Of a stretch of DNA of 64,000 nt, positions 41,831 through 64,000 are shown one piece after another. The notes beneath the pieces were generated by a model. That model did not search any database. It saw nothing but the letters and a program-made list of their open reading frames with translations, and was not told the origin of the DNA. Each line of letters starts with the position of its first letter. The first letter of the stretch is position 1. Origin of the DNA: Deltaproteobacteria bacterium SG8_13 (lineage in GTDB: Bacteria > Desulfobacterota > Desulfobacteria > Desulfobacterales > SG8-13); the NCBI GenBank assembly GCA_001303025.1, contig LJNK01000014.1:2998-66997 (forward strand), given 5' to 3'. The position numbers and the translations under genes were made by a program.

Positions 41831-41859
41831 AAGATAAATCGGTTTTAGTCGGGTCGCAA
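41831..41859 (-). promoter_or_regulatory. sigma70 promoter of tRNA-Glu, overlapping the end of the 18-heme cytochrome gene
   Basis: TTGCGA-17 nt-TATCTT on the minus strand, 5 nt before the tRNA 5' end. Confidence 0.55.
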
Positions 41860-44112
41860 GATCCGCTTGTCCGGTTGATGAAAATAGAGGTAGCGAAAGG
41901 GGGCTTCTTCCGCGTGGCAGTTTACACAAACGGTTTTGTAGCTTGCCGTCCGCAAAAATTTACTGGCCCCCGACCCTTGCAGGATTTTCACAGGGCGTGC
42001 GGCATTTCCGAGAAAACCCCACCGGTGGCTGTCGTGACAGGACGGGCAAGAGATATTTCCGATATCGACCCTGTGGCCATTGCCGTCAAACAGGGGCGTA
42101 TAAAAACCACGGCGTTTGTCAAACAGGGCCGTATTGATAATCAACCGGTCCGTCGGGTGGGAAGCGATGCGGGGGATCTTTTTTTCTGCGATATTTCCCC
42201 TGGAATGACAGCTGGTGCACAGCGAATCGACAACGCTGTCGGATCTGTCGGCCGGGCCGGCGCGTCTCACCCAGAGCCGGATCCGACCGGGGCTGTTGTG
42301 AACGACGTGACACGCGCCGCACGGACCAGATTGTCGTACCGTCTGATTCCGCAAATTTTTTTCCAACGGAGCGGTGACGTTCAGATCGTGGGCGGTGCCG
42401 ATGATCTGCGCCTGATCCCTATGACAGCTGTTGCAAAGTGCGGACGAAGGCGCGTTCGCCATCCGAAGGAAGCTGTCGGCAGGGCTTCCCTCCACATTCT
42501 CAAACGAATAAGAGCCGCCGGCGTTCGTCGTTTTCGGATCCCAGCGATGGGGCTCGTGGCAGGTCAGACAGGCGATTTTTTCATCCGCCTTACGGTTTCC
42601 GTCACTGTCGTACAAGGGAAGATCACCGGTCGTTGGATCCGTGGATACGGTTATGGCCTGCAGGTCGGGCTTTACTTCGATCGGGTGATCACTGCCGCCG
42701 ACAATTTTTAACTTGGCCGCACCGCCTCGATTGTGACAGCCGGTGCACATTTGCATCGCAAAACTGCTGCCGGCGGAGCGATCTTTGGCCCAGAGTCTGG
42801 TGCCGACGGCATGGTGGGGGAGGTGACACGCGCTGCAGGGACCGGATACGTTCGGGGTGAGACCGGAAACATTTTTTTCATCCGGTGCCGTCACACTCAG
42901 GTTGTGATCGGAGGCCAGCACCGGCTTGTTGTCGCGGTGACAGGTCACACAAAGGGTGGATATACCGCTGTTGGATATCCGTAAAAAGCTGTTGTTCGCA
43001 TCGCCGGCAACATCTCTGTCGGCGAAATAAACGGGTTTTTCCGGCGCCCACTGATGAACATCATGGCAGGTGAAACACTGCATCCTGCCCGCCGGATTTC
43101 GGGTTGCATCATCGGCAAACAACGGCAAGTCGGTGGGGATCGAGCTGTTTGAAAGGGGCTCGACGTTGACGGGGTGAGAATAAACCCCCACTTGCCTGAT
43201 GTTGCCGTTGCTTGGGTGATCGTGGCACACCAGGCACATCTGCGATGGATTGTTGACGATAGCAAAGGGTCTGGCCCATAGTTTTTTATTGGCCGCATGA
43301 TGCGGAACATGGCACGCACCGCAGGGGCCGGATTCAGCCGGCAGCTGCTGCTTGAGGTTCTTTGATTCGGACATCGTCAATCGCAGGTCGTGCTTTGAAT
43401 GTAATACCTGCTTTTGCTTCCGATGGCATTCGGTGCACAACTCGGAGCTGTAGTTTTCGATGGCGACGATCTTTTTGCCTTTTGCGCCGTGCACCTTGTG
43501 GCACGTCTGACAGACGATGTTGGGATTGTCTGCCGCTTCGCTGCCCTGCAGATTCAGCGATGCGGTCGATATGCGACCGCGGGGCACTTGCAGGGGGTGA
43601 CCGTTGGTGAGGGTAAAACGCGCTTCGTTTCGGTGGCACATCGCACAGAGGCTCGAATCTACGTTTTTTTCCCGGAAAAACGATGTGATCCCCTCCACGC
43701 CGCCTTTGGGGGCCGATCCGGCACCATGAGGAGAATGGCAGGTTCCGCAGTAAAGTTCATCCTTGTTGCTTAGCGGAAGAGATTTCGGCACGTTCACTTT
43801 TCGAGAAGGTTTTACAAATGTTTTGTGGCTGTTGTGTTTCCACACCAGATGCCGGGAGTCCTGGACATAGCCGTCATGGCAGCTGTAGCAGATATCCTCG
43901 GAGCTCACTACTCCCTGCGTGTCCTTCATGAGCACATTGCCGGGCTGCCAGTCGATCAGGGTTTCTTTGTCGGTGCGAAAATCATCCAGCCACATGACGT
44001 GGCAGATGGCGCAGTCCCTTTTGGAAGACATTTCAAATGCCGGCGCAGCCGAAGGAAGCATCAGAAGTGCCATTATGGCAAACAGGAGCATGGTGGGCGT
44101 TGATTTGACCAT
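41845..44112 (-). CDS. Multiheme cytochrome c, 18 CXXCH (paired-CXXCH type)
   Basis: Signal peptide; 18 CXXCH motifs counted, CAICH through CVNCH. Confidence 0.93.
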   Translation of the reverse strand: MVKSTPTMLLFAIMALLMLPSAAPAFEMSSKRDCAICHVMWLDDFRTDKETLIDWQPGNVLMKDTQGVVSSEDICYSCHDGYVQDSRHLVWKHNSHKTFVKPSRKVNVPKSLPLSNKDELYCGTCHSPHGAGSAPKGGVEGITSFFREKNVDSSLCAMCHRNEARFTLTNGHPLQVPRGRISTASLNLQGSEAADNPNIVCQTCHKVHGAKGKKIVAIENYSSELCTECHRKQKQVLHSKHDLRLTMSESKNLKQQLPAESGPCGACHVPHHAANKKLWARPFAIVNNPSQMCLVCHDHPSNGNIRQVGVYSHPVNVEPLSNSSIPTDLPLFADDATRNPAGRMQCFTCHDVHQWAPEKPVYFADRDVAGDANNSFLRISNSGISTLCVTCHRDNKPVLASDHNLSVTAPDEKNVSGLTPNVSGPCSACHLPHHAVGTRLWAKDRSAGSSFAMQMCTGCHNRGGAAKLKIVGGSDHPIEVKPDLQAITVSTDPTTGDLPLYDSDGNRKADEKIACLTCHEPHRWDPKTTNAGGSYSFENVEGSPADSFLRMANAPSSALCNSCHRDQAQIIGTAHDLNVTAPLEKNLRNQTVRQSGPCGACHVVHNSPGRIRLWVRRAGPADRSDSVVDSLCTSCHSRGNIAEKKIPRIASHPTDRLIINTALFDKRRGFYTPLFDGNGHRVDIGNISCPSCHDSHRWGFLGNAARPVKILQGSGASKFLRTASYKTVCVNCHAEEAPFRYLYFHQPDKRILRPD

Positions 44113-44239
44113 TTGCTGTACCGCAATGAAGTCGACCGTCCAGTGTCTGTCAGGGGTCGTGCAAATCCCGTCGGGCCGGGATCGATTCTTTTTTCGATTG
44201 TTTCAGGTACCGGTGGATTTCATGGAAACACCTGCGGCA

Positions 44240-45232
44240 TCAATCAGCTATCGACAATACACTGATCTTGTTCGCACGCATTTCCACCACATACAGCCGT
44301 CGGTGCCGGCTGTCGAATGCAATTCCGACAGGAGTCGTAAATTGTTTTTTGCCGCTGTTTTCACAAACAACACCGAGGAATCGTCCCGGGGCAGTAAACA
44401 CCTGGATGAGGCCCATGTAACTGTCACTGACAAATATGCGGTCGTTTTCATCGATGGTCACGCCTTTGGGCCTGAAGAGATTTCCAGGGAGCACACCCCA
44501 TGAACCGATTTCGCTCAGAAAATTTCCGTGGGGATCAAAGACCTGGACGCGTGTATTGAGAACATCGACGACAAAAACCTGGTTGTACTGGTTAACCGCC
44601 AGCATGCCCGGGTACCTGAATTCACCAGGCCCCTCACCGAATTTGCCCCATTCGAATTCAAACCGGCCATCTTGCGAAAAAACCCGTATTTTGTGATTGT
44701 CGTTATCGGATACGTACAAGTAGCTGTTAAAATCCGATACGAGCACATCGACCGGATCGGCCGGCTTTTCGCCCGGTTTTGTTTCCACCCGAAACTGGTA
44801 TAAAAACTTCCCCGTCAGATCGAACGCCTGAATGCGATGATTGCCCGTATCGGCGATAAACACCTTGCCGTCTGCGGATATGTCGATCCCCAGCGGGCGT
44901 GCGAATTCACCGTTCCCACTGCCGTCTTTGCCGAAAGAAAAATGCCGACTGCCGTTGCTGCCGATCACCAGGATTCGGCTGTTGACGCCGTCGACCAGGT
45001 ACAGATCGCCGTTGGGCCCGATCGCGATATCGCTGGGCTGGTCGGAATCCGGTTGTATATCGAAAAGCAATCGGCCGGTGGTGCATTCCACGGCATCGGA
45101 TAGACCCGGCAGGATCAGGATAGAAAGGCTGACGATCAGATATTGTAAGATGCGGTAGGGCCGATACAAATCTTCACCTGCACCATCATCTGGATTGCCC
45201 GGGTGTCCGGATGGTTGATTTTCATGCGACAT
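44240..45232 (-). CDS. NHL-repeat beta-propeller protein
   Basis: Repeated F..P.GI...G..YV.D..N.RIQVF units after a hydrophobic N-terminal segment. Confidence 0.9.
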   Translation of the reverse strand: MSHENQPSGHPGNPDDGAGEDLYRPYRILQYLIVSLSILILPGLSDAVECTTGRLLFDIQPDSDQPSDIAIGPNGDLYLVDGVNSRILVIGSNGSRHFSFGKDGSGNGEFARPLGIDISADGKVFIADTGNHRIQAFDLTGKFLYQFRVETKPGEKPADPVDVLVSDFNSYLYVSDNDNHKIRVFSQDGRFEFEWGKFGEGPGEFRYPGMLAVNQYNQVFVVDVLNTRVQVFDPHGNFLSEIGSWGVLPGNLFRPKGVTIDENDRIFVSDSYMGLIQVFTAPGRFLGVVCENSGKKQFTTPVGIAFDSRHRRLYVVEMRANKISVLSIAD

Positions 45233-45262
45233 TCAGGCAGCCGTGTTCGCGGGCCCGGTTAT

Positions 45263-46093
45263 TTACTTGAACAGGGCCGGCAAGTGAAATTCCTTATATT
45301 TGGTGATCATGCCCTTGATGTTCATCTGCTGTAAATCGACCGCCCGGTTGGCCTCGAATCCGAGCGCTTCAAAATCGAGCACGCCGGTTTTCGAATGGCA
45401 AACTTCGCATTCATATCCTTTGGGCTTGATGTTTTCATGAAATTTCATCTTGAAAACATCCCGCTGTTCGGGGGAAAGTGAATCTCTGACCTTGACGAAA
45501 TCCCTGGCCAGGGGGGCATCCTGCGCCTGAATGGCCGAAACCAGCTTATCCTCTTTTTTAAAGTAGGGGGCAATCTTGGACAGAAGATCGGTCCCGGTTG
45601 CAAGGGCTCCCGTTTCGGGGTCATAGCGGGTGCCGAAAAACGGCCCGGTCGGATTTTCGTCGCCGGGATTGTACCATTTGTAAACGACGGTCTTCTCTTC
45701 GCTTTCCTTGATGTGACAGGTTTCACACACAAAGTATTGGGTGTGCATGTTGAGCAGAGAGCGTATTTTTTTGTTTTTTACGTGCGGGTAGTCGGAATGA
45801 CAGATGTAACAGGCGGGACGCTGGCCTTCAGCGAGCTGCGGGAAGTCGACGATATTGTGAAAATGCCGGTGGATTTCCAGCTCCTGAAGCCGCTTGGCTT
45901 CTTCCAAAACGGCCGATTTGTGTTCGGTGAAGTATTTTTCGACCACCGGTTTCAACAGCTCGGGACCGTGCGGAGATACGGCCAGGTGGTGCAACACACC
46001 AATGAACACCAGAAAGGTGACCGTTAGCACCACAAATCCGATGAGGTAGGCAATTTTCGGATGATCCGTTCTCTTATCGGTTGTTTGGCTCAA
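45263..46093 (-). CDS. Membrane-anchored triheme cytochrome c
   Basis: N-terminal TM; CYICH, CETCH, CEVCH; TTG start at 46093 after AGGGG, downstream of the cytochrome b stop. Confidence 0.82.
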   Translation of the reverse strand: MSQTTDKRTDHPKIAYLIGFVVLTVTFLVFIGVLHHLAVSPHGPELLKPVVEKYFTEHKSAVLEEAKRLQELEIHRHFHNIVDFPQLAEGQRPACYICHSDYPHVKNKKIRSLLNMHTQYFVCETCHIKESEEKTVVYKWYNPGDENPTGPFFGTRYDPETGALATGTDLLSKIAPYFKKEDKLVSAIQAQDAPLARDFVKVRDSLSPEQRDVFKMKFHENIKPKGYECEVCHSKTGVLDFEALGFEANRAVDLQQMNIKGMITKYKEFHLPALFK

Positions 46094-46143
46094 TTTGAGA
46101 GTCCCCCTATGACGGTTGACATGCAGTGGTGTTGCTGTCCGGT

Positions 46144-47103
46144 TTAGTGAATACGGGACAAATCGGCAATCGATACGCTTGCCGGTTTGGAAAATCCCTT
46201 CTCCTTTAGCAGGTTTTTCATATACTCTTTTTCCTCGGGGATTTCCTCGAGATTGCGAATATACTCCAGAAAGTGCTCTTCGATCTGATGTTCCCGTGTG
46301 ATCTTTCCGGTCAAAAACGCCCATTGAAATGGAAAACGACCCGGGACGAAGTGAACGTTCAGCAAATGCCAGAATGATATCACCAGCAGCGCCATCACCG
46401 CTTCATCGGCGTGCATGAGCCTTGCGAGCTCCTGAAAAAAAGCCGGGAAGGATCCCGCGCTTTTACCGGCTGCCGGCAGCAACCGTGCCAATGTTTCGGG
46501 AAATATTTTGGCCATCAAATCGGGGAAAAGCAAGGCCGCTCCGGCGGTGATCAGCACGGTATTTCCCCAGATGATGGCCAGATAATGCAGCTTTTGTTTG
46601 TACATGAATTTTTCCATTTTCGGCCGATAAGGGGCCAGGCCGAAAAAATACTTCATGTCGTGAATCAGATCGAACAGATCTTTCGGCACGGGGATTTGCG
46701 TTCTTTTGTAATCGAACTGGTTTTTCAGCAGTTTTCGAGCGGTCCCGCCGACAATGGTAATGACATGGTACAGGCAGGTAAATATCATCAAAAATGCCGC
46801 TACCCGGTGAACGATTCGGGCCGTGTCGGCGCCGCCGAACATCGATATCAAGTGAGGGGCCCAGAACAGGTCGCTGTAATACAGCGGCAGCCCTGTGAGC
46901 ACCAATACCAAAAAAGTGACGACCACCAGAAAGTGCTGGATCACGATGTGCACAGAATACCTGGGCAGATCCCCCAAAGGGTCCGAGGTCACGTATTTGT
47001 AAATGTCCCTGGGGATGTTGCCCACACCTTCCACGTGGGTGTAGTATTCTTCAGCGTCCGCCCGCTGGTCCGGCACGGCCATTGCTTCCGATGGATTCGA
47101 CAT
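46144..47103 (-). CDS. Cytochrome b subunit (FdnI/CbcB-like), quinone-interacting membrane protein
   Basis: 4 TM segments with His in QHFL, VHRV and MHADEAVMALLVISFWHLL; KFMYKQKLHY loop. Confidence 0.85.
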   Translation of the reverse strand: MSNPSEAMAVPDQRADAEEYYTHVEGVGNIPRDIYKYVTSDPLGDLPRYSVHIVIQHFLVVVTFLVLVLTGLPLYYSDLFWAPHLISMFGGADTARIVHRVAAFLMIFTCLYHVITIVGGTARKLLKNQFDYKRTQIPVPKDLFDLIHDMKYFFGLAPYRPKMEKFMYKQKLHYLAIIWGNTVLITAGAALLFPDLMAKIFPETLARLLPAAGKSAGSFPAFFQELARLMHADEAVMALLVISFWHLLNVHFVPGRFPFQWAFLTGKITREHQIEEHFLEYIRNLEEIPEEKEYMKNLLKEKGFSKPASVSIADLSRIH

Positions 47104-47121
47104 GGTACATCTCCCGGGTAG

Positions 47122-48192
47122 TTATCGGTTTTTGGGGTTTCCCCGCCATGCGGTTCCGCGGCGCAGCAGAAACTTGACACCGTCTTTCCTCCTGCCGTAG
47201 GTTTCAACGGCCATCAGTCCGACCATGCTGAACAGCGAACCATAGAGCGCCAGTCGGAAAAAAATGCTCGCGAAATAGACAATCGGATTTTTCTCCCGTT
47301 CAATGCGCGGATGGACGGCTATTTTAATAAACCAGCTGTTTGTTTGCTCATGGCATTGTCTGCAGGTGGTCATCAGGTTGTCTTTGTGAATCGTGGCCTT
47401 CACATTGTCTTTTTTGTAAATATCATGCAGTGCGTTGGAGGCGTGACAGCTAATACAATCCGCTGTCATTTCAGATCCCAGCGCGATCGATTTACCGTGG
47501 ATCGATCGGTTGTAGGTTTCCACCGCCAGCAGGGCTTCCTCGGAAACGTTTATCTTTTTCATCATTTCCCTGTCGTCGTGGCACTTGCTGCACAGCTGCA
47601 CGATTTGCTGGGGGGAGCGGGAGGTCTTTTTGCGCAGCCGGTGGGTTACGTGCATGTACGCCACTGTAACCCCCTTTTGCTCATGACAATTCAGGCAGCG
47701 CTGCAAGGTCTTTTCGTAGTCGATCAGTTTTTCTTCGACCCGTGTGTACAACGGGTTGAGATGACAGAACTTGCAATTCGGCTTGGCGGCTTTTACCTCG
47801 GGAGGATCTTCCGGTCTAACCGCATGCGCGCTTTGACTGTAGATATCGATGATCTTCGTGTGGGAGAATTTCTCCTGTGAATGGGGCGGTTTGAGATGAC
47901 ATGCGTTGGCGCAGTTTACGTCCTCGGTAACCGGATCGTGCGGTATCTTCTTGATGGAAGCGTGGCATTCGCGGCAGGCAATATTTCGGTGAACACTGCC
48001 GGCGAAGAAATGCTCATCCACATTGTAGTTGAACTGTTTGCCGTTTTCGTCGATCCGACCCAGATAGCGATATTTATGGCACATCAAACAGTTTTCTTTG
48101 TCTTGCGCCTCAGCCGGAAGGCCGATAATTAGTGTGATCCAAACGGCAGTAAAAACAAGGCAGAAATTTAGGAAGAACCTGGTTGGTCTCAA
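47122..48192 (-). CDS. Multiheme cytochrome c with C-terminal membrane anchor (CbcA-like), 7 CXXCH plus 1 CX3CH
   Basis: Signal peptide; CLMCH, CRECH, CANACH, CKFCH, CLNCH, CSKCH, CISCH, CRQCH; C-terminal TM; TTG start with GGAG (start uncertain). Confidence 0.85.
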   Translation of the reverse strand: MRPTRFFLNFCLVFTAVWITLIIGLPAEAQDKENCLMCHKYRYLGRIDENGKQFNYNVDEHFFAGSVHRNIACRECHASIKKIPHDPVTEDVNCANACHLKPPHSQEKFSHTKIIDIYSQSAHAVRPEDPPEVKAAKPNCKFCHLNPLYTRVEEKLIDYEKTLQRCLNCHEQKGVTVAYMHVTHRLRKKTSRSPQQIVQLCSKCHDDREMMKKINVSEEALLAVETYNRSIHGKSIALGSEMTADCISCHASNALHDIYKKDNVKATIHKDNLMTTCRQCHEQTNSWFIKIAVHPRIEREKNPIVYFASIFFRLALYGSLFSMVGLMAVETYGRRKDGVKFLLRRGTAWRGNPKNR

Positions 48193-54031: not shown

Positions 54032-54048
54032 GGCAAATACCATACCAG
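54032..54048 (-). promoter_or_regulatory. sigma54 -24/-12 promoter for the leftward cytochrome operon
   Basis: Minus strand CTGGTAT-GGTAT-TTGCC (GG-N10-GC), about 55 nt upstream of the GTG at 53977. Confidence 0.7.
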
Positions 54049-54331: not shown

Positions 54332-54348
54332 TTGGCATATTCATTGCA
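54332..54348 (+). promoter_or_regulatory. sigma54 -24/-12 promoter for the rightward cytochrome operon
   Basis: TTGGCAT-ATTCA-TTGCA (GG-N10-GC), about 65 nt upstream of the TTG at 54414. Confidence 0.78.
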
Positions 54349-57355: not shown

Positions 57356-59557
57356 ATGAAAAAGCGTATTGCCATCGTTCTAAGTGTCTGTATTTTGCTT
57401 TTTATTGCCGGCGGCATTTACATCGTCGTCACCATCAGTTCCAGCACCGCTAAGCTCGACCACCTCATTATGCTCCACCAGGTCGAAATCCTGAGAGAGC
57501 ATCTCCTGTTGCAGATTCGCAAGGTCCAATCCGATCTGATGCTCAAAGACAGTGCCTTTGCCAGCAGCGACGAAACGATTGCGGCCAACGTGCGCGCCAT
57601 GCAGATGATATCCACCACCTGCAAGGACTGTCACCACCGGCAGTCCGTGCAGAAACGGCTCGATGTGCTGATCAACGATGTCGCCGACTACAAGATGTCT
57701 CAACAGATGTTCATGGATTCCCGGAATCCGTCGAAACGCTCAGAACTTCAATCCGTAGCCTTCCGTAAAACCGAAAAACTGGAATCGATGGTCAACGGCA
57801 TGATCCACATTGCCAACAGCAAGCTCGCCGACAGCACCCAGGCATCGCTTGCCGATATCGCGCGATCAAAGACCATCCTGTACGTGCTGGTCGCCATCAC
57901 CCCGCTGATTGCCGGCGGGCTGGGTTTTTTTTTCATACGCGATCTGGCCAAACCGGTCGGTGTTCTGTTGAATGCCACCCGCCGGCTGAAAAGCGGTGAT
58001 CTGGACTATCGGGTAGAGGGGCTTTCCAAAGAGTTCGCTGAAGTGGCTACATCCTTTAACCAGATGTCCGAAGCACTGAAGCAACAATTGCTGCAGCTGC
58101 AGGAGAGCGAAAAGCGCTACCGGATGCTGTTCGAAAGTGCCGGGGATGCGATCTTCATCCTCGAGGCAGAAGGTGCGAATCGGGGCAGGATCGTGGCTGC
58201 CAACCGGGCTGCCGCAACCATGCACGGGTACACCGTGGAAGAAATGCTGAAGATGTCGATTCAGGACCTGGATGCCCCTGCCGCTGCCGAACAGGCCTCT
58301 AGAAGAATTCAGCAGATCCTTTCCGGAAAATGGATTACGGCCGAGATCGAACACATCCGACGGGACGGATCGGTTTTTCCGGTTGAAATCAGTGCGGGCC
58401 TGCTGGAACTGGAAGGCCGGAAGTATGTCCTGGCTTTTGACCGAGACATCACCGAGCGCAAGCAGATGGAGGACATGCTCCGACAGACCAAGCAGGAATG
58501 GGAAGACACCTTTGACACCATTACCGACATGATCTCCATCCACGATCGAGAATTTAACATCGTCAGGGCCAACAAGGCCGCCCAAGAGATTCTCGGCTTG
58601 CCCCTGCTGGACCACACCCGGGCCAAGTGCTACGAATACTATCACGGTAAAAACGCTCCGCCGGAGGGCTGTATCAGCTGCGAGTGTTTCAGAACCGGAG
58701 AGCCGGCCTCCTTCGAGGTGTTCGAGCCGCATCTGGACCGGCTGTTCGAGGTCCGGGCCATGCCGCGTTTCGACTCCGACCGCCGCCTGACTGCCGTGAT
58801 CCATGTGCTGCGGGACATCACCGAACGCAAACGGATCGAAGAGACGCTCCAGCGGGCCGAACAGATGAAGCTGGTCGGCGAGTGGGCCACTGCCCTGGCC
58901 CATGAAATCAAAAATCCGCTGGCCGGCATCAAGGTGTCGGTGGAAGTGCTGTCCGAGGAGCTGGAGCTGAAGGAAGACAAACAAGTGGTGAAACGGGCGG
59001 TGGAAGAAATCAAGCGAATCGAGAATCTGCTCAAGAGCCTGCTCAACTTTGCCAAACCGCCCAAACCACAGTTGAGCCAGACCGATCTAAACGACCTGCT
59101 GGACAAAACCGCGGCCTTTTCCCTAAAACAGCCGACCGTGTCAAAAAATACAGAGGGTATCATCCACATCGTCAAGGAATTCACGCCCGGCTTGCCCCAC
59201 ATTCTAGCGGACCCGATGCAGCTGCAGCAAATCTTTCTCAACCTGCTGCTTAACAGCATCGAGGCCATGCCCGACGGCGGCACCTTGCTGCTAAAAACCG
59301 ATCTCGATCCGGCCGCCAAGGCCGCCCGGATCGAGATCGCCGACACCGGCAAGGGGATCGAACTGCAGGTGCAGGAGAAGATTTTCGAACCGTTCTTCAC
59401 CACCAAAAAGAAAGGCAGCGGACTGGGGCTGGCGGTTACCAAGCGCTTGATCGAACAGCACAGGGGCGACATTCACCTGACCAGCGAACCCGGCAAGGGG
59501 ACGGTGTTTACCATCACCTTTCCCATTGAAGTCGACAGGGAGGAACAGGCCGCATGA
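57356..59557 (+). CDS. Sensor histidine kinase: periplasmic CXXCH domain, HAMP, two PAS, HisKA, HATPase
   Basis: Two TM segments flank CKDCH; HAMP (PVGVLLNATRRLKSGDL); PAS/PAC; H-box AHEIKNPL; N/G1/F/G2 boxes. Confidence 0.93.
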   Translation: MKKRIAIVLSVCILLFIAGGIYIVVTISSSTAKLDHLIMLHQVEILREHLLLQIRKVQSDLMLKDSAFASSDETIAANVRAMQMISTTCKDCHHRQSVQKRLDVLINDVADYKMSQQMFMDSRNPSKRSELQSVAFRKTEKLESMVNGMIHIANSKLADSTQASLADIARSKTILYVLVAITPLIAGGLGFFFIRDLAKPVGVLLNATRRLKSGDLDYRVEGLSKEFAEVATSFNQMSEALKQQLLQLQESEKRYRMLFESAGDAIFILEAEGANRGRIVAANRAAATMHGYTVEEMLKMSIQDLDAPAAAEQASRRIQQILSGKWITAEIEHIRRDGSVFPVEISAGLLELEGRKYVLAFDRDITERKQMEDMLRQTKQEWEDTFDTITDMISIHDREFNIVRANKAAQEILGLPLLDHTRAKCYEYYHGKNAPPEGCISCECFRTGEPASFEVFEPHLDRLFEVRAMPRFDSDRRLTAVIHVLRDITERKRIEETLQRAEQMKLVGEWATALAHEIKNPLAGIKVSVEVLSEELELKEDKQVVKRAVEEIKRIENLLKSLLNFAKPPKPQLSQTDLNDLLDKTAAFSLKQPTVSKNTEGIIHIVKEFTPGLPHILADPMQLQQIFLNLLLNSIEAMPDGGTLLLKTDLDPAAKAARIEIADTGKGIELQVQEKIFEPFFTTKKKGSGLGLAVTKRLIEQHRGDIHLTSEPGKGTVFTITFPIEVDREEQAA

Positions 59558-60948
59558 AAGAGATGCGCAAGGTGTTCTTGCTCGACGACGACGACCTGAT
59601 TATCTCCATGCTCAGCAGGGCCTTGCAAAAGGCCGGTTTCGAGGTTCAGACGGAAACCGAATCCGGCGGTGCATTGCAGAAAATCAGATCCTTCAGCCCG
59701 GATGTCGTTATGCTCGACATCAAGATGCCGAAACCCGATGGAATGGACATCTTACGGGAAATTCAGGATCTACGGATCGATACCCAGGTCGTGATGCTGA
59801 CCTCCGACGACACCGCCGAAACAGCGGTCAAGGCGATGAAACTCGGTGCGGCCGATTACCTCACCAAGCCGTTTCACACCGATGAGGTCAAGATCGTCAT
59901 CAACAACGTGATCGAAAAAGAGCGCCTGAAGCAGGAGGTGCGCTTTCTGCGCAAGGCCTACTCCGATTTTGTCGAAAAGGACATCATCGGCAGCTCCGGA
60001 GCCATTGAGAGCCTGTTGGAGAAGGTGGATCGCATCGCCAAGGCCCGGGTCAACAACATCCTGATTACCGGGGAGAGCGGAACGGGCAAGGAAGTCGTGG
60101 CCCGGCACATTCACAACCTGATGTTCGAGCAGAGCGGCAGCGGGCATGCGCCGTTTATCTCCGTCAACTGTGCAGCAATGCCCGAATCACTGTTGGAAAG
60201 TGAGTTGTTCGGTTACATCAAGGGCTCTTTTACCGATGCGAAGTCCGACAAGAAAGGCCTGTTCGAACTGGCCTCCGGCGGTTCGATCCTGCTGGACGAG
60301 ATCGGTGAGATGAAAATGGATTTGCAGAGCAAACTGCTGCGGGTGCTGGAAGATCGAACCATCCGAAGAATCGGTGGAAAAAGCGAGATGCCCATCGATG
60401 CCACGGTGATTGCCACCACCAACAAAAACCTTTCCGATGCGGTGAGCAATGGAGAGTTTCGTAAAGACCTGTTTTTCCGCCTCAGCACGTTTTACCTGCA
60501 TATCGTCCCCCTGCGGGAGCGAAGGGAGGACATTGCGCCGCTGGCCGATCACTTCCTGAAAATTTTTACGACCAAATACAACAACCGTTGTATTAAGGGC
60601 TTTACCCCGGAGGCCGGGCGGGTGCTCCGGTCCGCCAGCTGGCCCGGGAATGTGCGCGAGTTGAAAAACCTGATCGAACGGATCGTTGTGCTGGAAAACA
60701 CGGAAATGATCGGTCCCGAACACATACCCGGCTGGATCACCGGTGGGACCATGTACAACGGACCCAAACCCAGCAACGGGTTTCAGCTTCCGGATTCGGG
60801 CATCGACTTGGAAAACCTGGAGAAAAACCTGATTCAGCAGGCCCTGAAAAAGGCGGAAAACAACAAGGCCCTTGCCGCCAAGCTGCTGAACATCAGCTAC
60901 GACAGCCTTCGCTACCAGGTAAAAAAATTCGGCCTGGAAGGCGGTTAA
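59554..60948 (+). CDS. sigma54-dependent response regulator (NtrC family)
   Basis: Receiver (LLDDDD, MLDIKMP, KPF); AAA+ (GESGTGKE, ESELFG-GSFTDA, LDEIGE, WPGNVREL); Fis-type HTH. Confidence 0.95.
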   Translation: MKEMRKVFLLDDDDLIISMLSRALQKAGFEVQTETESGGALQKIRSFSPDVVMLDIKMPKPDGMDILREIQDLRIDTQVVMLTSDDTAETAVKAMKLGAADYLTKPFHTDEVKIVINNVIEKERLKQEVRFLRKAYSDFVEKDIIGSSGAIESLLEKVDRIAKARVNNILITGESGTGKEVVARHIHNLMFEQSGSGHAPFISVNCAAMPESLLESELFGYIKGSFTDAKSDKKGLFELASGGSILLDEIGEMKMDLQSKLLRVLEDRTIRRIGGKSEMPIDATVIATTNKNLSDAVSNGEFRKDLFFRLSTFYLHIVPLRERREDIAPLADHFLKIFTTKYNNRCIKGFTPEAGRVLRSASWPGNVRELKNLIERIVVLENTEMIGPEHIPGWITGGTMYNGPKPSNGFQLPDSGIDLENLEKNLIQQALKKAENNKALAAKLLNISYDSLRYQVKKFGLEGG

Positions 60949-60984
60949 GCCGGGTTCACTTTACGGAAGGGATACTCCCCAACT

Positions 60985-62118
60985 TTATCGTTCCAGGGTG
61001 GCCACCGCCCCGTTTACCATGGCCGCGGCCAGGCCATGGGCCGTGCGGATGGTCCCCCAGTCGAAAACAACCACCCCGTCGTCTCCGTCCCGGCAACTGC
61101 TGGCAGCCCATGCGGACTCTCGGGTCTGATGCTCGATAAGCGATGCCGAGAAACAGACTTTGGCCGGTCCTCCGGCTCCCTGGTAATCCTCGTAGTCGAA
61201 TACCCGCCCTGAGAGAATCAGATCGACGTTCATACGGCTGAACAATGCGGTGGCATCGGCCAGCGACAGACCGTCTTGCATCACGATTCGGAAATTCAGC
61301 AGTGTCTGCCGCACCTGGCCCGGTTCCACGGGCTGCATATTGGCAAGCCCCTTCAGCGCGGCCGTGAAATGGTGCGTCATCATCTGCCCGGCGTGCCTGC
61401 GAGTGCTCAGATTCAAAAAGGGCAGCACCACAACGCTGTAAGTTCTGTTCGGCAGCAGCAGACGGCTGTTGAACACGATTTGGGGTTCGAAGGTACGCCG
61501 GGTTTCCGCCGCTGTCGCATGTTGACCGGACAGATGGCCCACCAGTGATGTCGTCAGTTGAAATATCGCGCGGCGCAGCAGTATGTCGGGGTCTTCCACC
61601 AGGGAGAGTTCCAGGAAACCGGGTGCATCGTCACCGGCTGCACCCACCCCGTCCATCCACAGAATCCGCGGCCGGTCTCCGGCGGTCACCAGCCTTGCAG
61701 AAAGGGCAATTTTTGGAGGGGGCTGGCCATTGTAATATTCCAGTGCGGTGAACAGGACCGCATCTGCACCGATCTCCTCTTTGAGCAGCCGGGCCGTTTC
61801 GTTGTCCATTCCGCCGGTATAGCGAAGGCGGTGCCGGACGATAAAGCCCTCGATTTGATCATCTGGAACGACGCTCACCGCGCTTTTTTCCAGGTGAAAT
61901 ACGATTTCGCTGCGGATGCCGATCAGCGGAGCCGCGATACCGCTCAGATTGTCGATGGGCATGACGGCAATGACCGGCGAATCCTGAACTTTCTCAACGG
62001 TGGTCGCAGGGCCGCTGGTCGAACACCCGGCTATGCAGAGAAGCAGGCAGCATCCCGCCAGCGTGATTTTAGTAAAGGAGTTTGTTGATGAGATCATTGA
62101 CTGCTGCCTGGGTGACAT
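60985..62118 (-). CDS. Lipoprotein with two tandem PelC/CsgG-like (GNA1162/DUF799-like) domains
   Basis: Lipobox IAG-C; AVMPIDNLS...ILWMD and VVLPFLNLS...SAWAA repeats. Confidence 0.7.
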   Translation of the reverse strand: MSPRQQSMISSTNSFTKITLAGCCLLLCIAGCSTSGPATTVEKVQDSPVIAVMPIDNLSGIAAPLIGIRSEIVFHLEKSAVSVVPDDQIEGFIVRHRLRYTGGMDNETARLLKEEIGADAVLFTALEYYNGQPPPKIALSARLVTAGDRPRILWMDGVGAAGDDAPGFLELSLVEDPDILLRRAIFQLTTSLVGHLSGQHATAAETRRTFEPQIVFNSRLLLPNRTYSVVVLPFLNLSTRRHAGQMMTHHFTAALKGLANMQPVEPGQVRQTLLNFRIVMQDGLSLADATALFSRMNVDLILSGRVFDYEDYQGAGGPAKVCFSASLIEHQTRESAWAASSCRDGDDGVVVFDWGTIRTAHGLAAAMVNGAVATLER

Positions 62119-62659
62119 CGTTCATGGGCCTCCCGCCGCCTCCGAGCAGACGGTCTGCCATAGAGATCCCACCGCGCGTGGCGGATGCCGTCCACACCAC
62201 CCGCTGGGTGCTGGATTCAAACATCTGCAATCCAACGGAAACGACGTTGGCGGACGTGGCCCCGGAACGGACTTCGCCGTATTCTCGAACGACACCGGTA
62301 ATCAGGGCGTCGGCCTGGACGATGGCGGCGATTTTGGTGACGTCGTCCTTCGAGGGCGATGACGGATTGGTAATGCCGGCCCTGGCGATGCCCCGGGCAA
62401 CCTCTCCGGGGGGCACCACGTACAATGCGCCGGTTGACATGAGGCTGTTGATAAAGGTGTCGCGCACGCGGTCGGCGGCCTGTTGATCCCGCGAAAGATT
62501 GGCAAGCGGCATCACGGCAATGCTGCGCAGGGCCGAAAAATCGATGTCGGGGTCGTGAAAGCTCTCGGGTACGGACTTCGCGCCGCAGCCCGTCAGCAGC
62601 AAAGCCGCTGCCATCCAAATACAGCATATCCATCGCATGAGGGGAGACGTTGGGTTCAT
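62069..62659 (-). CDS. PelC/GNA1162-like lipoprotein
   Basis: Lipobox LTG-C; AVMPLANLS, LITGVVREY, RVVWTAS; start reassigned to ATG 62659. Confidence 0.75.
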   Translation of the reverse strand: MNPTSPLMRWICCIWMAAALLLTGCGAKSVPESFHDPDIDFSALRSIAVMPLANLSRDQQAADRVRDTFINSLMSTGALYVVPPGEVARGIARAGITNPSSPSKDDVTKIAAIVQADALITGVVREYGEVRSGATSANVVSVGLQMFESSTQRVVWTASATRGGISMADRLLGGGGRPMNDVTQAAVNDLINKLLY

Positions 62660-62787
62660 CCGAAGTTCCTTTACGCTGTCAGCGCCGGTCATCCCGGAGC
62701 AGGTTTGTTTTCCGGTCTTCCTATTTTTATCCCAATCCGCACCCGGGGTCAACACCAACGGAAACCTCATACGGCAGGTTTCGCCGT

Positions 62788-64000
62788 TCACCAGGTAAAG
62801 ATCAGTTCCGAGCGAAAGGTGCGCGAGTCAATATTCTGCAGCGGATCCTCCGAGTCTGTCAATGTGTACTGGGACTCCAACAGCAGATGGCGACTGATGT
62901 TCCAGGCCAGAAACGGTCCATAGTTGCGGTCCCGGCGACCTTCCTCCAGCCGCAGAATTTCAGCGTACGTGAGAGAAAACTGGATCGCACCGTCCGGAAA
63001 CGGCGACCAGCTTACCGAGTAGTTCTGCACGGTGGTGGTTTCATCATCCCGATCCCGGATCGTGACCTTGCCGAACAAAGACAGGGCCGGGTAGGGAGTG
63101 AAGAACATCTGGAGGTTGTAGGCGTTGTCGGTGTAATCTCCTCCCTGGTCTTCGAGGTTTTCCACCAGCCGCAGCGTCGCATCCAGGTTGAATGTAAGGG
63201 TTCGGTGCGGTACCAGGTTGGTTCCGAGTCGGACGGTCGCCGTGTCCTGCCGGCCGATCGCCAAAAGGTCTTCCCGGCTGTAGCCGAGATCCAGATATGC
63301 GCTCCAGTCGCGGTACAAAATGGCGTTGCTGCGCAAAAAAACCGAATCGGTGGTGCCGGTGCCTTCGTCGAGTTCCGTGCGTGTGCCGCTGAAGGTCAGG
63401 ATTTGATTGAAAGTTCTCAGATAGTCGGCCCGCAATGATAAACCGTAGGTGTAGTCGATTACCGTATCATCGTTTACCGTTGTGTCCGTGCGCAGCAGGC
63501 GGGCGTTGGTGGAAAAAACCGGGTTGAAGATGTGGCGCAAAAACAGCCCGTTGGCGAGCTCGGACCGCTCGTCGGTAACGGCCGAAAAGGCAAATTCCTG
63601 TTTCCGGGTCCGCCAGTTGAGATCGTACCCGGTCGACGTTCGCGGCGAGATGCGACCGGTGAGGGTGAGGTTGACATTATGATCGACCGTTTCCTGCTCG
63701 GCGGTGACGGGCAGCCCCGATAGGGTCAGGAAGGGCTCCATTTCGGTGACGAAGATGTTGGGAAAGCTGGCTGCGCCGGGAACGAGCGGCGATAGAGGGC
63801 GTACAACCACCTTGAGGTAGCGGGTCGTCACCGTCGGGAAGGTGATGTCGAATCGGAATTCGAAGGTGTCGAACAGGGCCGGGAACACGGTGGCCACCTG
63901 GGTCCAGGTGCTGGTGTCGAGATTGTCGGGACTGGTGTACACCGCCCAGGAGAACGAATTGGACACTGCGGCGGTCAGTCTTTGATCGACCCACACCCGT
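62788..64000 (-). CDS. Outer-membrane beta-barrel protein with an inserted discoidin-like domain (5'-truncated)
   Basis: About 300 aa of alternating amphipathic beta-strands ending in RSELIFTW (aromatic C-terminus), preceded by a ...TRYLKVVV... segment; frame open at the window edge. Confidence 0.72.
   Translation of the reverse strand, partial: RVWVDQRLTAAVSNSFSWAVYTSPDNLDTSTWTQVATVFPALFDTFEFRFDITFPTVTTRYLKVVVRPLSPLVPGAASFPNIFVTEMEPFLTLSGLPVTAEQETVDHNVNLTLTGRISPRTSTGYDLNWRTRKQEFAFSAVTDERSELANGLFLRHIFNPVFSTNARLLRTDTTVNDDTVIDYTYGLSLRADYLRTFNQILTFSGTRTELDEGTGTTDSVFLRSNAILYRDWSAYLDLGYSREDLLAIGRQDTATVRLGTNLVPHRTLTFNLDATLRLVENLEDQGGDYTDNAYNLQMFFTPYPALSLFGKVTIRDRDDETTTVQNYSVSWSPFPDGAIQFSLTYAEILRLEEGRRDRNYGPFLAWNISRHLLLESQYTLTDSEDPLQNIDSRTFRSELIFTW

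What the first reader, a model, noticed from the sequence alone, without database searches (positions are those of the whole stretch)
41845..64000. 22-kb putative extracellular electron transfer locus, from inner membrane to outer membrane, with its own regulators
Seen in sequence: 8 c-type cytochromes (18, 3, 7+1, 7+1, 20, 5+1, 6+2 and 3 hemes), two cytochrome b proteins, two NHL propellers, a lipoprotein cytochrome, two non-heme lipoproteins, a beta-barrel and a two-component system. There are 70 canonical CXXCH motifs including the kinase motif, plus 5 atypical ones. Established: Geobacter uses Cbc-type cytochrome b/c quinol oxidases, periplasmic carriers and porin-cytochrome conduits. Inference: this is a complete quinone-to-surface conduit in a probable sulfate-reducer-lineage organism, for metal or electrode respiration or interspecies electron transfer. 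I do not recognise this architecture as a characterised system.
Basis: partly seen in the sequence, partly recalled or inferred. Interest (0 to 1): 0.9.

Follow-up and report, generated by a model that had tools for sequence, protein, structure and literature searches.

The report
Cytochrome nanowire plus quinone-module gene island
This stretch of an uncultured sulfate-reducer-type bacterium joins two membrane "quinone-to-cytochrome" modules, two 18-20-heme cytochromes and a redox-sensing regulator to the export machinery of a Geobacter-like OmcS cytochrome nanowire. It is a real extracellular electron-transfer island, but it is built from parts that are already described.

Summary
The region has 8 c-type cytochromes, 70 CXXCH motifs plus 5 atypical ones, 2 cytochromes b, 2 NHL propellers, a sigma54 two-component system, 2 lipoproteins and a barrel.

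The barrel and both lipoproteins are not a porin-cytochrome sheath. They are orthologues of Geobacter OscE, OscF and OscG, with an OscD-like propeller and an OmcS-like hexaheme gene just past the window end. Identities to a Geobacter omcS locus are 32-56% (E 1e-70 to 1e-95), in the same gene order. The rest of the osc cluster (PPIase, 26-heme, 16-heme, NHL) lies on contig C79, which abuts this contig.

The other 15 kb holds two paralogous three-subunit modules: an octaheme c with a C-terminal anchor, an FdnI-type dihaem b, and an anchored triheme c. Each pairs with an NHL propeller and an 18- or 20-heme cytochrome. This unit is conserved in about 35 Desulfobacterales-type MAG loci and is built like Geobacter CbcBA/BccR.

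Sigma54 promoters precede both a cytochrome operon and the omcS/osc operon. The genome carries dsrAB.

Verdict: a linked new variant of known systems, of moderate interest. Sequence orthology to Geobacter CbcBA and expression could not be tested.

The parts
41845..44112 (-). MHC18: 18-haem soluble cytochrome c (755 aa) with a Sec signal peptide; last gene of module 1
   Evidence: 18 CXXCH. Paired_CXXCH_1 117 bits. 34% identical to MHC20. Only an N-terminal hydrophobic segment.
44240..45232 (-). NHL1: NHL-repeat beta-propeller partner of MHC18
   Evidence: NHL 96 bits and DUF5128. Always adjacent to the large cytochrome in related loci.
45263..46093 (-). C1: trihaem cytochrome c with an N-terminal membrane anchor (module 1)
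   Evidence: 3 CXXCH. TM at residues 11-29. 33% identical to C2. Likely TTG start at 46093.
46144..47103 (-). B1: FdnI-type cytochrome b with 4 TM helices (module 1)
   Evidence: PF01292, 23 bits, below the gathering score. 31% identical to B2. 4 TM segments.
47122..48192 (-). A1: octahaem cytochrome c (7 CXXCH + CX3CH) with a signal peptide and a C-terminal TM anchor (module 1)
   Evidence: 33% identical to A2.
48498..49481 (-). Lipo7h: lipoprotein cytochrome c, 7 CXXCH plus a conserved CXCH site
   Evidence: Lipobox-type Cys and the CXCH motif are conserved in orthologues. ATG with a Shine-Dalgarno sequence at 49481.
49450..51888 (-). MHC20: 20-haem soluble cytochrome c with a Sec signal peptide
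   Evidence: 20 CXXCH, all invariant in 18 orthologues. Tetrahaem repeat spacing.
51952..52953 (-). NHL2: NHL-repeat beta-propeller partner of MHC20
   Evidence: NHL 100 bits. Synteny.
52976..53917 (-). C': hexahaem cytochrome c (5 CXXCH + CX3CH); its C-terminal half is homologous to the trihaem C subunit
54032..54047 (-). Weak sigma54-type -24/-12 element before the C'-NHL2-MHC20 operon
   Evidence: TGGTATGGTATTTGCC, with GG and GC kept and 3 mismatches.
54333..54348 (+). Sigma54-type -24/-12 promoter before the A2-B2-C2-HK-RR operon
   Evidence: TGGCATATTCATTGCA, 1 mismatch, 66 nt before the A2 start. Only 59 such sites occur in the 3.8-Mb genome.
54414..55580 (+). A2: octahaem cytochrome c (6 CXXCH + CX3CH + CX8CH) with a C-terminal TM anchor (module 2)
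   Evidence: All haem sites and the TM His369 are 100% conserved in 41 orthologues.
55597..56358 (+). B2: FdnI-type dihaem cytochrome b (module 2)
   Evidence: PF01292, 64.5 bits, above the gathering score. The family profile aligns with FdnI 1kqf_C, and all four haem-b His ligands are matched.
56355..57200 (+). C2: trihaem cytochrome c with an N-terminal membrane anchor (module 2)
57356..59557 (+). Sensor histidine kinase with a periplasmic domain carrying one CXXCH (a haem-c sensor), then HAMP, 2 PAS, HisKA and HATPase
   Evidence: Two TM segments flank residues 26-173. The CXXCH is kept in all 15 orthologues, with varying X residues.
59554..60948 (+). Sigma54-dependent response regulator (REC-AAA+-HTH_8)
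   Evidence: Sigma54_activat 212 bits. 65-73% identical orthologues sit beside osc clusters in L008, L027, L046, L094 and L096.
60985..62118 (-). Large lipoprotein, OscG-position orthologue
   Evidence: 42% identical over 330 aa, E 5e-85, to the Geobacter gene after the OscF position.
62069..62659 (-). Small GNA1162/LpoB-like lipoprotein, OscF-position orthologue
   Evidence: 56% identical, E 1e-70, to Geobacter. PF05643.
62788..64000 (-). C-terminal 403 aa of a 735-aa outer-membrane barrel, the OscE-position orthologue; the gene runs to 65001 on the contig
   Evidence: 32% identical over 696 aa, E 2.5e-80, to Geobacter. AlphaFold pLDDT 87, about 28 strands plus an inserted beta-sandwich. About 140 relatives, all unannotated.

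Best explanation
The region is most of one extracellular-electron-transfer super-locus of a dsrAB-carrying Desulfobacterales-type bacterium. It has three functional blocks.

(1) Two paralogous inner-membrane modules, A-B-C. B is an FdnI-type dihaem cytochrome b that exchanges electrons with menaquinone/menaquinol. A is an octahaem c held by a C-terminal helix. C is a trihaem c held by an N-terminal helix. A and C carry the electrons on the periplasmic face. This is the architecture of Geobacter CbcBA with an extra subunit.

(2) Each module hands electrons to, or takes them from, a soluble 18- or 20-haem cytochrome encoded next to an NHL propeller. The propeller is inferred to be a scaffold. 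Module 2 has in addition a hexahaem C' and a lipoprotein heptahaem.

(3) The barrel, the two lipoproteins and the propeller lipoprotein just past the window are OscE, OscF, OscG and OscD orthologues. By analogy with Geobacter, they export and organise a filament of the OmcS-like hexahaem encoded immediately upstream.

A kinase with a periplasmic haem-c sensor and its sigma54 activator sit between the blocks. They probably switch on the cytochrome operons and the omcS/osc operon together through -24/-12 promoters.

Shown here: gene content, orthology of the Osc part, conservation, linkage, and the promoter motifs. Inferred: complex formation, the order of electron carriers, co-regulation, and the direction of flow. 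Flow could be outward to minerals or electrodes. It could also be inward from a partner or cathode to the quinone pool and sulfate reduction; in that case an FdnI-like b would conserve energy as a redox loop.
For: Osc block:
- The 6-haem gene upstream of the propeller lipoprotein in relatives matches OmcS 6EF8 over its full length, E 1.7e-74.
- This genome's own contig-end fragment matches OmcS residues 276-407, E 5.8e-17.
- A Geobacter omcS locus was fetched. It gives 41% (E 2e-95), 32% (E 2.5e-80), 56% (E 1e-70) and 42% (E 5e-85) identity for the OscD, OscE, OscF and OscG positions, in the same order.
- Contig C79 carries OscH-, OscI- (26 haems) and OscJ-like (16 haems) genes, an NHL gene, an OscA-like gene and the N-terminal part of the omcS-like gene. 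C79 overlaps the end of C44 by 16 bp, in frame.

Cbc-like block:
- The paralogues are 31-34% identical.
- The four FdnI haem ligands align with invariant His of the B family.
- Membrane topology fits the proposed anchoring.
- The unit A-B-C-(C')-NHL-MHC is conserved in about 35 loci.

Linkage:
- The same super-architecture occurs in L008, L027/L089, L046, L094 and L096.
- In 200 genomes of the same order, all 3 with a close barrel homologue are among the 8 with B2.

Regulation:
- A sigma54 element with 1 mismatch precedes A2. A perfect TGGCAC-N5-TTGCA precedes the oscA/omcS operon. Only 59 such sites exist genome-wide.
- Two rpoN candidates are present.
- The haem motif of the kinase is conserved in 15 of 15 orthologues.

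Organism and literature:
- dsrAB is confirmed.
- CbcBA/BccR features are described in bioRxiv 10.1101/2021.04.15.440034.
- Osc roles are taken from PMC13194489, which cites Shen et al. 2025.
Against: - No Geobacter CbcBA sequence could be reached, so 'Cbc-like' rests on architecture only. The gene order (A-B-C) and the third subunit differ from cbcBA.
- In most related loci the A-B-C/NHL/MHC unit has no osc cluster within 10 kb. In one genome (G085) the two are 3.2 Mb apart. Functional coupling is therefore not obligatory.
- MHC18 and MHC20 carry only Sec signal peptides and may stay periplasmic.
- Their AlphaFold model was poor (pLDDT 53), and there is no PDB relative by sequence.
- The C79-C44 join rests on a 16-bp overlap plus frame continuity.
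- The Osc letter assignment is inferred from GSU numbers and gene order. The primary paper is not held.
Confidence: 0.72

Rival explanations
1. First reader's model. The barrel is the sheath of a porin-cytochrome conduit of the MtrAB/Pcc/OetABI type. One of the window's multihaem cytochromes is threaded through it, and the lipoprotein cytochrome sits on the outside.
For: The barrel is very large, at about 28 strands. Its best TM-score among solved structures is to MtrB 6r2q_B, 0.41-0.44. A lipoprotein heptahaem and 18-20-haem cytochromes are encoded nearby.
Against: The barrel is orthologous and syntenic to the Geobacter OscE-position protein. In every locus its operon contains no multihaem gene other than the OmcS-like one. 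The lipoprotein cytochrome belongs to another operon and occurs in many loci that have no barrel. The fold-search hits are generic large barrels with rmsd above 13 A.
Confidence: 0.1
2. The A-B-C/NHL/MHC units are periplasm-confined respiratory modules of a sulfate reducer, analogous to Qrc/Tmc/Hmc/Nhc. They link periplasmic hydrogenase or formate dehydrogenase and the cytochrome pool to menaquinone. Their position next to the osc cluster would then have no functional meaning.
For: Most of the roughly 35 related loci carry the unit without an osc cluster within 10 kb. In G085 the two are 3.2 Mb apart. All soluble cytochromes have plain Sec signals. The genome has dsrAB.
Against: The unit, the kinase-regulator pair and the osc cluster are juxtaposed repeatedly. 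At least five further loci show this, and the three sampled genomes that hold both belong to three different families. Sigma54 promoters precede both the cytochrome and the osc operons, with the activator encoded between them. NHL-plus-multihaem pairs are a hallmark of EET clusters: the osc cluster itself, D. ferrophilus and Uet. No periplasmic reductase or dehydrogenase is encoded in the window.
Confidence: 0.15
3. The barrel and PelC/LpoB-like lipoproteins are a polysaccharide or amyloid export system unrelated to electron transfer.
For: The lipoproteins hit GNA1162-like/LpoB families. The barrel has a weak galactose-binding-like insert.
Against: An OmcS-family gene and/or multihaem cytochromes lie in the same operon in all 12 contexts examined, Geobacter included. 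No glycosyltransferase or synthase is present in the operon.
Confidence: 0.03

Closest known systems
omcS-companion (osc) cluster of Geobacter sulfurreducens (omcS GSU2504 to oscJ GSU2494; Shen et al. 2025, Cell Chem Biol 32:239, as summarised in PMC13194489)
   Same: An OmcS-family hexahaem gene is followed by a YNCE propeller lipoprotein, a roughly 720-aa barrel, a roughly 200-aa GNA1162-like lipoprotein and a roughly 380-aa lipoprotein, in the same order. Identities are 41, 32, 56 and 42%. A PPIase, a 26-haem cytochrome, a 16-haem cytochrome and an NHL protein are also present in the genome. A kinase and a sigma54 regulator sit beside the cluster in Geobacter too.
   Different: There is one omcS-like gene instead of omcS, omcT and oscC. 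The spermine-synthase-like OscB homologue is on another contig, C122. The OscD-like protein lacks the CXXCH that the Geobacter protein carries at its N-terminus. The OscH-J genes are divergent rather than collinear. The cluster abuts Cbc-like modules.
CbcBA (Cbc5, GSU0593-0594) with the regulator BccR (GSU0598) of G. sulfurreducens (Joshi, Chan and Bond 2021)
   Same: A multihaem c with a C-terminal membrane anchor plus a dihaem FdnI/'thiosulfate-reductase-like' cytochrome b. A sigma54 promoter and a REC-sigma54-HTH regulator lie next to it.
   Different: The gene order is A-B-C, with a third, anchored trihaem subunit. There are 8 rather than 7 haem sites. It is duplicated, or triplicated in relatives. 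It is always followed by an NHL propeller and an 18-20-haem cytochrome. The regulator has a cognate haem-c kinase. Sequence orthology is untested.
Cytochrome operon of SEEP-SRB1 / Ca. Desulfofervidus (six-bladed propeller, 16-haem, 26-haem, PPIase; Skennerton et al. 2017, PMC5539420) and CbcBA use in Seep-SRB2 (Murali et al. 2023, PMC10553843)
   Same: The same four-gene core is present on contig C79. It occurs in a dsrAB-carrying Desulfobacterota genome. A Cbc-type module has been proposed as the route between periplasmic cytochromes and quinone.
   Different: Here the core is physically joined to omcS/oscDEFG and to A-B-C modules. No OetABI-type conduit was seen in the locus.
NHL-propeller / multihaem 'outer-membrane cytochrome' clusters of Desulfovibrio ferrophilus IS5 (DFE_0448-0451, DFE_0461-0465; Deng et al. 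2018)
   Same: NHL propeller genes are interleaved with multihaem cytochromes in a sulfate reducer and are proposed to stabilise a cytochrome complex.
   Different: Those clusters are not described as holding a cytochrome b or a barrel. Deleting them did not stop Fe(III) oxide reduction. Sequence relationship is untested.
Porin-cytochrome conduits (MtrCAB, Pcc/Ext, OetABI, Uet)
   Same: A large outer-membrane barrel is encoded among multihaem cytochromes. The barrel's best structural TM-score is to MtrB.
   Different: There is no periplasmic/extracellular cytochrome pair in the barrel operon. There is no sequence or Pfam relationship to known porins. The barrel has an inserted beta-sandwich domain and two dedicated non-haem lipoproteins.

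Membership tests
osc (omcS-companion) nanowire assembly cluster | OmcS-family hexahaem subunit gene at the head of the operon | tested here: met
   The contig-end fragment matches OmcS 6EF8 residues 276-407, E 5.8e-17. The N-terminal part, with 4 CXXCH, is on C79. The full-length relative L096 matches at E 1.7e-74. The gene lies just outside the window.
osc (omcS-companion) nanowire assembly cluster | Homologues of the beta-propeller OscD and the channel-like OscE, OscF and OscG, in that order | tested here: met
   tblastn against a Geobacter omcS locus gives 41% (E 2e-95), 32% (E 2.5e-80), 56% (E 1e-70) and 42% (E 5e-85), collinear. The letter names are inferred from GSU numbering in PMC13194489.
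osc (omcS-companion) nanowire assembly cluster | PPIase chaperone OscH and large periplasmic cytochromes OscI and OscJ | tested here: met
   C79 carries homologues at 33%, 44% (26 CXXCH) and 42% (16 CXXCH) identity, plus an NHL protein. These are outside the window.
osc (omcS-companion) nanowire assembly cluster | The OmcS-like protein is exported and polymerises into a filament | not testable with these tools
   Needs microscopy or biochemistry of the organism or a heterologous host.
CbcBA (Cbc5) quinol:cytochrome c oxidoreductase | Periplasmic multihaem c anchored by a C-terminal TM helix (CbcA) | tested here: met
   A1 and A2 each have a signal peptide, 8 haem sites and a C-terminal hydrophobic helix.
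CbcBA (Cbc5) quinol:cytochrome c oxidoreductase | Dihaem b-type membrane subunit of the FdnI/PhsC type (CbcB) | tested here: met
   PF01292 at 64.5 bits for B2. The profile aligns with FdnI 1kqf_C and matches all four His ligands. B1 is below the Pfam gathering score but 31% identical to B2.
CbcBA (Cbc5) quinol:cytochrome c oxidoreductase | Sigma54 promoter and an adjacent BccR-type (REC-sigma54-HTH) regulator | tested here: met
   For module 2 only; no element was found before A1.
CbcBA (Cbc5) quinol:cytochrome c oxidoreductase | Two-gene cbcB-cbcA organisation | tested here: not met
   The order is A-B-C, with a conserved third trihaem subunit and NHL/MHC partners.
CbcBA (Cbc5) quinol:cytochrome c oxidoreductase | Sequence orthology to GSU0593/GSU0594 | not testable with these tools
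   No Geobacter cbcBA sequence could be fetched.
Porin-cytochrome conduit (MtrAB/Pcc/OetABI) | Barrel co-operonic with a periplasmic multihaem cytochrome that inserts into it and an outer lipoprotein cytochrome | tested here: not met
   The barrel operon is oscA-like, omcS-like, OscD, E, F, G, with no other cytochrome gene.
Porin-cytochrome conduit (MtrAB/Pcc/OetABI) | Barrel related to MtrB/OmbB/OetI | tested here: inconclusive
   No Pfam or NCBIfam hit. Foldseek gives TM 0.41-0.44 to MtrB among many generic barrels.
NHL/multihaem clusters of D. ferrophilus IS5 | NHL propeller genes adjacent to multihaem cytochromes | tested here: met
   Sequence homology to the DFE proteins was not tested because no sequences were reachable.

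The most novel reading that the evidence does not exclude
The super-locus may encode one contiguous, sigma54-switched route for taking electrons in. Electrons would pass from an OmcS-type filament exported through the OscE barrel to NHL-scaffolded 18-26-haem periplasmic 'cables'. From there they would reach a three-subunit A-B-C complex whose FdnI-like cytochrome b reduces menaquinone at the cytoplasmic side. Electron uptake from a partner, mineral or cathode would then itself generate proton-motive force for sulfate reduction.

Several residues hint at extra cofactors not found in CbcBA or FdnI: a fifth invariant His in B, an invariant His in the membrane helix of A2, and conserved atypical CX3CH, CX8CH and CXCH sites.
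Probability: 0.25. Interest if true: 0.7.

Novelty: new variant of a known kind. Interest (0 to 1): 0.45.

Why it matters
How sulfate reducers that exchange electrons with minerals, cathodes or methane-oxidising archaea connect the cell surface to the quinone pool is still inferred piecemeal from scattered genes. Here the candidate inner-membrane modules, the periplasmic multihaem cytochromes, the redox-sensing regulator and the nanowire export machinery lie in one locus. They have shared promoter types, and the arrangement recurs in several families.

That gives a concrete set of genes that should be co-expressed and should interact, which can be tested. It also shows that the 'unknown barrel plus lipoproteins' seen next to cytochromes in such genomes is the Osc nanowire machinery, not a new porin-cytochrome type.

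Tried and rejected
- NCBIfam gave no specific family for A1, the large lipoprotein (LipoL) or the barrel. For A2 and C2 it gave only weak hits far below each family's cut-off.
- PDB sequence searches with MHC20, A2 and the kinase sensor domain found nothing useful.
- The AlphaFold model of MHC20 was too poor to search with (pLDDT 53), so no fold search was run on it.
- Foldseek with the barrel model returned only generic large barrels.
- The sigma-70 promoter and terminator scan was at background level and did not define operons.
- The idea that Geobacter Cbc5 (cbcEDCBA) contains the NHL/20-haem pair was checked in the literature and not supported: GSU0592 is the 12-haem OmcQ.
- MHC18 and MHC20 are not orthologues of OscI/OscJ. 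Similarity is only 21-24%, at repeat level.
- The two other cytochrome-b loci of the genome (C72) are unrelated to A/B.
This blocked a search of the phylum's genomes with the OmcS sequence, intended to reach Geobacter-like genomes.
Osc functions are therefore quoted second-hand and from memory of the abstract.

Full report
**Observation.**
- On the minus strand lie an 18-haem cytochrome (41845-44112) and an NHL propeller (44240-45232).
- Next come a trihaem cytochrome (45263-46093), a cytochrome b (46144-47103) and a 7+1-haem cytochrome (47122-48192).
- They are followed by a 7+1-haem lipoprotein cytochrome (48498-49481), a 20-haem cytochrome (49450-51888), a second NHL propeller (51952-52953) and a 5+1-haem cytochrome (52976-53917).
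- On the plus strand lie a 6+2-haem cytochrome (54414-55580), a second cytochrome b (55597-56358), a second trihaem cytochrome (56355-57200), a histidine kinase with one CXXCH (57356-59557) and a sigma54 response regulator (59554-60948).
- Converging on these are two lipoproteins (60985-62118 and 62069-62659) and a barrel ORF cut by the window end (62788-64000).
- The total is 70 CXXCH plus three CX3CH, one CX8CH and one CXCH.
- Pfam confirms the domain calls.
- The motifs are under selection. All 20 CXXCH of the 20-haem protein are invariant in 18 orthologues. The CX3CH and CX8CH sites of A2 are invariant in 41 orthologues.

**Two paralogous inner-membrane modules.** I call the subunits A, B and C.
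- Pairwise BLASTP shows the region holds two copies of the three-gene unit. Identities are 33% for A, 31% for B and 33% for C.
- A is an octahaem cytochrome c with a signal peptide and a C-terminal transmembrane helix.
- B is a cytochrome b with four helices.
- C is a trihaem cytochrome c with an N-terminal transmembrane helix.
- The 18- and 20-haem proteins are 34% identical.
- The C-terminal half of the 5+1-haem protein (C') is homologous to C.
- A profile of the B family aligns end to end with E. coli FdnI (1kqf_C). The four haem-b histidines of FdnI fall on invariant histidines of the family: H38, H80, H184 and H199 of B2.
- B is therefore a dihaem, quinone-reactive cytochrome b of the formate-dehydrogenase-gamma type.

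**Conservation of the cytochrome unit.**
- B2 has hundreds of 60-89% identical relatives, mostly unnamed or called 'formate dehydrogenase gamma'.
- I fetched 80 loci from species-representative genomes and ran tblastn with all 18 locus proteins.
- The unit A-B-C-(C')-NHL-large cytochrome-(lipoprotein cytochrome) is conserved in about 35 loci of Desulfobacterales/'Deltaproteobacteria' MAGs.
- Some loci hold up to three A-B-C modules (L002, L005, L008, L014, L035).
- Verrucomicrobial and other distant loci keep only the A-B pair.
- The kinase-regulator pair follows the unit in the closer relatives.

**Comparison with Geobacter CbcBA.**
- The architecture matches what Joshi, Chan and Bond describe for G. 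sulfurreducens CbcBA. That system has a seven-haem cytochrome with a C-terminal anchor, a dihaem quinone-oxidoreductase-like cytochrome b, a sigma54 promoter and the REC-sigma54-HTH regulator BccR. The authors note homologues in other phyla.
- Murali et al. propose that such a complex runs in reverse in Seep-SRB2.
- I could not fetch a Geobacter CbcBA sequence. 'Cbc-like' is therefore an architectural statement, not a tested orthology.
- The gene order, the third subunit and the obligatory NHL/large-cytochrome partners differ from cbcBA.
- The Geobacter Cbc5 cluster does not contain the NHL pair.

**The barrel operon is an osc cluster.**
- On the contig the barrel ORF is 735-737 aa. It is preceded by a YNCE-type propeller lipoprotein and then by the 3' end of a CXXCH gene at the contig end.
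- In a sample of 200 genomes of the same order, close barrel homologues occur in only three. All three are among the eight genomes that carry B2. My hypergeometric estimate is about 4e-5, uncorrected for phylogeny; the three belong to different families.
- In every context examined the barrel operon is headed by a roughly 350-390-aa hexahaem cytochrome and usually an NHL-like protein. This holds even where the operon lies 3.2 Mb from the Cbc-like locus.
- That hexahaem is a full-length OmcS homologue (PDB 6EF8, E 1.7e-74). This genome's own contig-end fragment matches OmcS residues 276-407 (E 5.8e-17).
- Starting from the OmcS sequence I reached 'c-type cytochrome OmcS [Geobacter]' and fetched two Geobacter loci.
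- The Geobacter gene order is: NHL-like, OmcS, OmcT, a spermine-synthase-like protein, an OmcS-like protein, a YNCE propeller, a 718-aa protein without Pfam hits, a 199-aa GNA1162-like lipoprotein, a 392-aa lipoprotein, a PPIase, a 26-haem cytochrome, a 16-haem cytochrome and an NHL protein.
- The window's propeller, barrel, small lipoprotein and large lipoprotein match the corresponding Geobacter genes at 41% (E 2e-95), 32% over 696 aa (E 2.5e-80), 56% (E 1e-70) and 42% (E 5e-85).
- PMC13194489, citing Shen et al. 2025, names this the omcS-companion (osc) operon. It assigns OscH to folding, OscE/F/G to secretion and OscD to filament morphology, and gives GSU2501 = oscC, GSU2495 = oscI and GSU2494 = oscJ.
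- On that numbering the window proteins sit at the OscD, OscE, OscF and OscG positions.
- Earlier notes of this scan reached the same identification for similar clusters in other genomes. I treated them as leads and tested the claim independently.

**The locus continues on contig C79.**
- tblastn with the Geobacter proteins finds the rest of the cluster at the end of C79. It holds an NHL protein, a 16-haem OscJ-like protein, a 26-haem OscI-like protein and an OscH-like PPIase on one strand.
- On the other strand are an OscA-like propeller and the first 286 codons of the omcS-like gene, with 4 CXXCH.
- The last 16 bases of C79 equal the reverse complement of the end of C44, and the reading frame is continuous.
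- The true locus is therefore about 35 kb and carries about 118 haem-c motifs.
- The same super-architecture is seen in the metagenome contig L096 and in part in L008, L027/L089, L046 and L094. That architecture is: OscH-J divergent from oscA-omcS-oscDEFG, which converges on regulator-kinase-large cytochrome-NHL-C'.

**Barrel structure.**
- AlphaFold with 38 homologues gives a confident model (pLDDT 87, pTM 0.71).
- It has about 11-12 strands, an inserted beta-sandwich (residues about 246-400, with a weak galactose-binding-like Pfam hit) and 17 further strands. That makes a barrel of about 28 strands.
- Foldseek against the PDB returns only generic large barrels. The highest TM-score is to MtrB, at 0.41-0.44.
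- This does not discriminate between a sheath and a secretion pore. The orthology and operon content favour the Osc role.

**Regulation.**
- The kinase has two transmembrane segments flanking a 150-residue periplasmic domain with CKDCH.
- The CXXCH is kept in all 15 orthologues while the X residues vary. This supports a covalently bound haem sensor.
- A -24/-12 element with one mismatch (TGGCATATTCATTGCA) lies 66 nt before A2. A weaker one faces the divergent C' operon.
- A perfect TGGCACATGGCTTGCA lies just before the oscA-like/omcS-like operon on C79.
- Only 59 sites with at most one mismatch exist in the 3.8-Mb genome. About 0.01 would be expected in these two gaps.
- Two rpoN candidates are present.
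- Co-regulation by the encoded activator is an inference from these motifs and from the conserved position of the regulator between the blocks.

**Organism and surroundings.**
- The genome is 3.8 Mb, 91% complete.
- It carries dsrA and dsrB above NCBIfam equivalog cut-offs.
- Its nearest relatives are labelled Desulfobacterales/Desulfobacteraceae MAGs.
- The super-locus holds 11 of the genome's 27 ORFs with at least three CXXCH, and 115 of 212 motifs.
- The left flank of the window encodes unrelated metabolism (TRAP transporters, an FAD/CCG oxidase, malate synthase, aldehyde dehydrogenase, amidase). It encodes no periplasmic reductase.

**Mechanism proposed.**
- *Shown:* gene content, orthology of the Osc part, paralogy, conservation, linkage and promoter motifs.
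- *Inferred:* B exchanges electrons with menaquinone. A and C receive or deliver them at the periplasmic face. C', the 18/20-haem cytochromes (with NHL propellers as scaffolds) and the lipoprotein cytochrome relay them across the periplasm. The OscI/J-like cytochromes may take part as well. The OmcS-like filament, exported through OscE with OscF/G and organised by OscD, is the surface contact.
- *Direction of flow:* this is open. In FdnI, electrons flow from the periplasmic haem to a quinone site at the cytoplasmic side, which conserves energy. The same topology would make electron uptake energy-conserving in a sulfate reducer. It would make outward flow dissipative, in line with the higher growth yield of the Geobacter cbcBA deletion mutant reported by Joshi et al..

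**Limits.**
- There is no test of orthology to Geobacter CbcBA, no expression data and no localisation data.
- The model of the 20-haem protein was too poor to use.
- The contig join is inferred.
- Osc functions are quoted second-hand.

**Verdict.** The finding is real, and it is an extracellular-electron-transfer locus. The barrel part is an already described system (osc). The cytochrome b/c part is a widespread but uncharacterised three-subunit relative of Cbc complexes. What is new is the recurrent physical and probably regulatory coupling of the two in dsrAB-carrying Desulfobacterales-type bacteria. That makes it a new variant of a known kind, of moderate interest.

Noticed in passing
beyond the window: contig C44 bases 66998-69903 (window coordinates 64001-66906) and contig C79 65849-74219: The rest of the locus lies here. 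It includes the OscE N-terminus, the OscD-like propeller lipoprotein and an omcS-like hexahaem gene split between two contig ends that overlap by 16 bp. It also includes an OscA-like propeller, an OscH-like PPIase, a 26-haem cytochrome, a 16-haem cytochrome and an NHL protein.
   Followed up: yes
contig C79 72240-72255 (+): A perfect sigma54 consensus (TGGCACATGGCTTGCA) lies immediately upstream of the oscA-like/omcS-like operon. Only 59 sites with at most one mismatch exist in the whole genome.
   Followed up: partly
48498-49481 (-), residue 102 of the lipoprotein cytochrome: A C-X-CH motif (CSCH here, CRCH in most orthologues) is conserved. It aligns with a canonical CXXCH in the most distant homologues (L008, L049, L050). 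This suggests an eighth haem attached through a one-residue spacer, which I do not know from characterised cytochromes.
   Followed up: partly
54414-55580 (+), residues 97-102, 281-291 and 369: The CX3CH and CX8CH sites of A2 and a histidine inside its C-terminal membrane helix are 100% conserved in 41 orthologues. The B family also has a fifth invariant histidine (H94) beyond the four FdnI haem ligands. A1 lacks the membrane histidine. An extra cofactor at the A-B interface is possible.
   Followed up: partly
loci L002, L005, L008, L014, L035: Relatives carry a third, more divergent A-B-C module (30-40% identical to module 2) between the divergent operons. This genome lacks it.
   Followed up: no
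64967-66376 (-) in window coordinates, beyond the window: The OscD-like propeller lipoprotein has a plain lipobox (SSGC). It lacks the CXXCH (CSGCH) found at the N-terminus of the Geobacter protein at the OscD position.
   Followed up: partly
contig C72 76612-81726: Two further multihaem (8- and 7-CXXCH) plus cytochrome b pairs exist in the genome. They have strong PF01292 scores but no similarity to A or B.
   Followed up: partly
contig C99 6606-9107: dsrA and dsrB are adjacent and score above the NCBIfam equivalog cut-offs (614 and 491 bits).
   Followed up: yes
contig C122 3438-5912: A spermine-synthase-like membrane protein is 30% identical to the Geobacter protein at the OscB position. 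It is encoded away from the locus. In L094 the equivalent gene follows OscG directly.
   Followed up: no
20114-24106 (+) and 12393-13814: The left part of the window holds an FAD-linked oxidase plus a CCG/4Fe-4S protein next to malate synthase (glycolate-oxidase-like).
   Followed up: no
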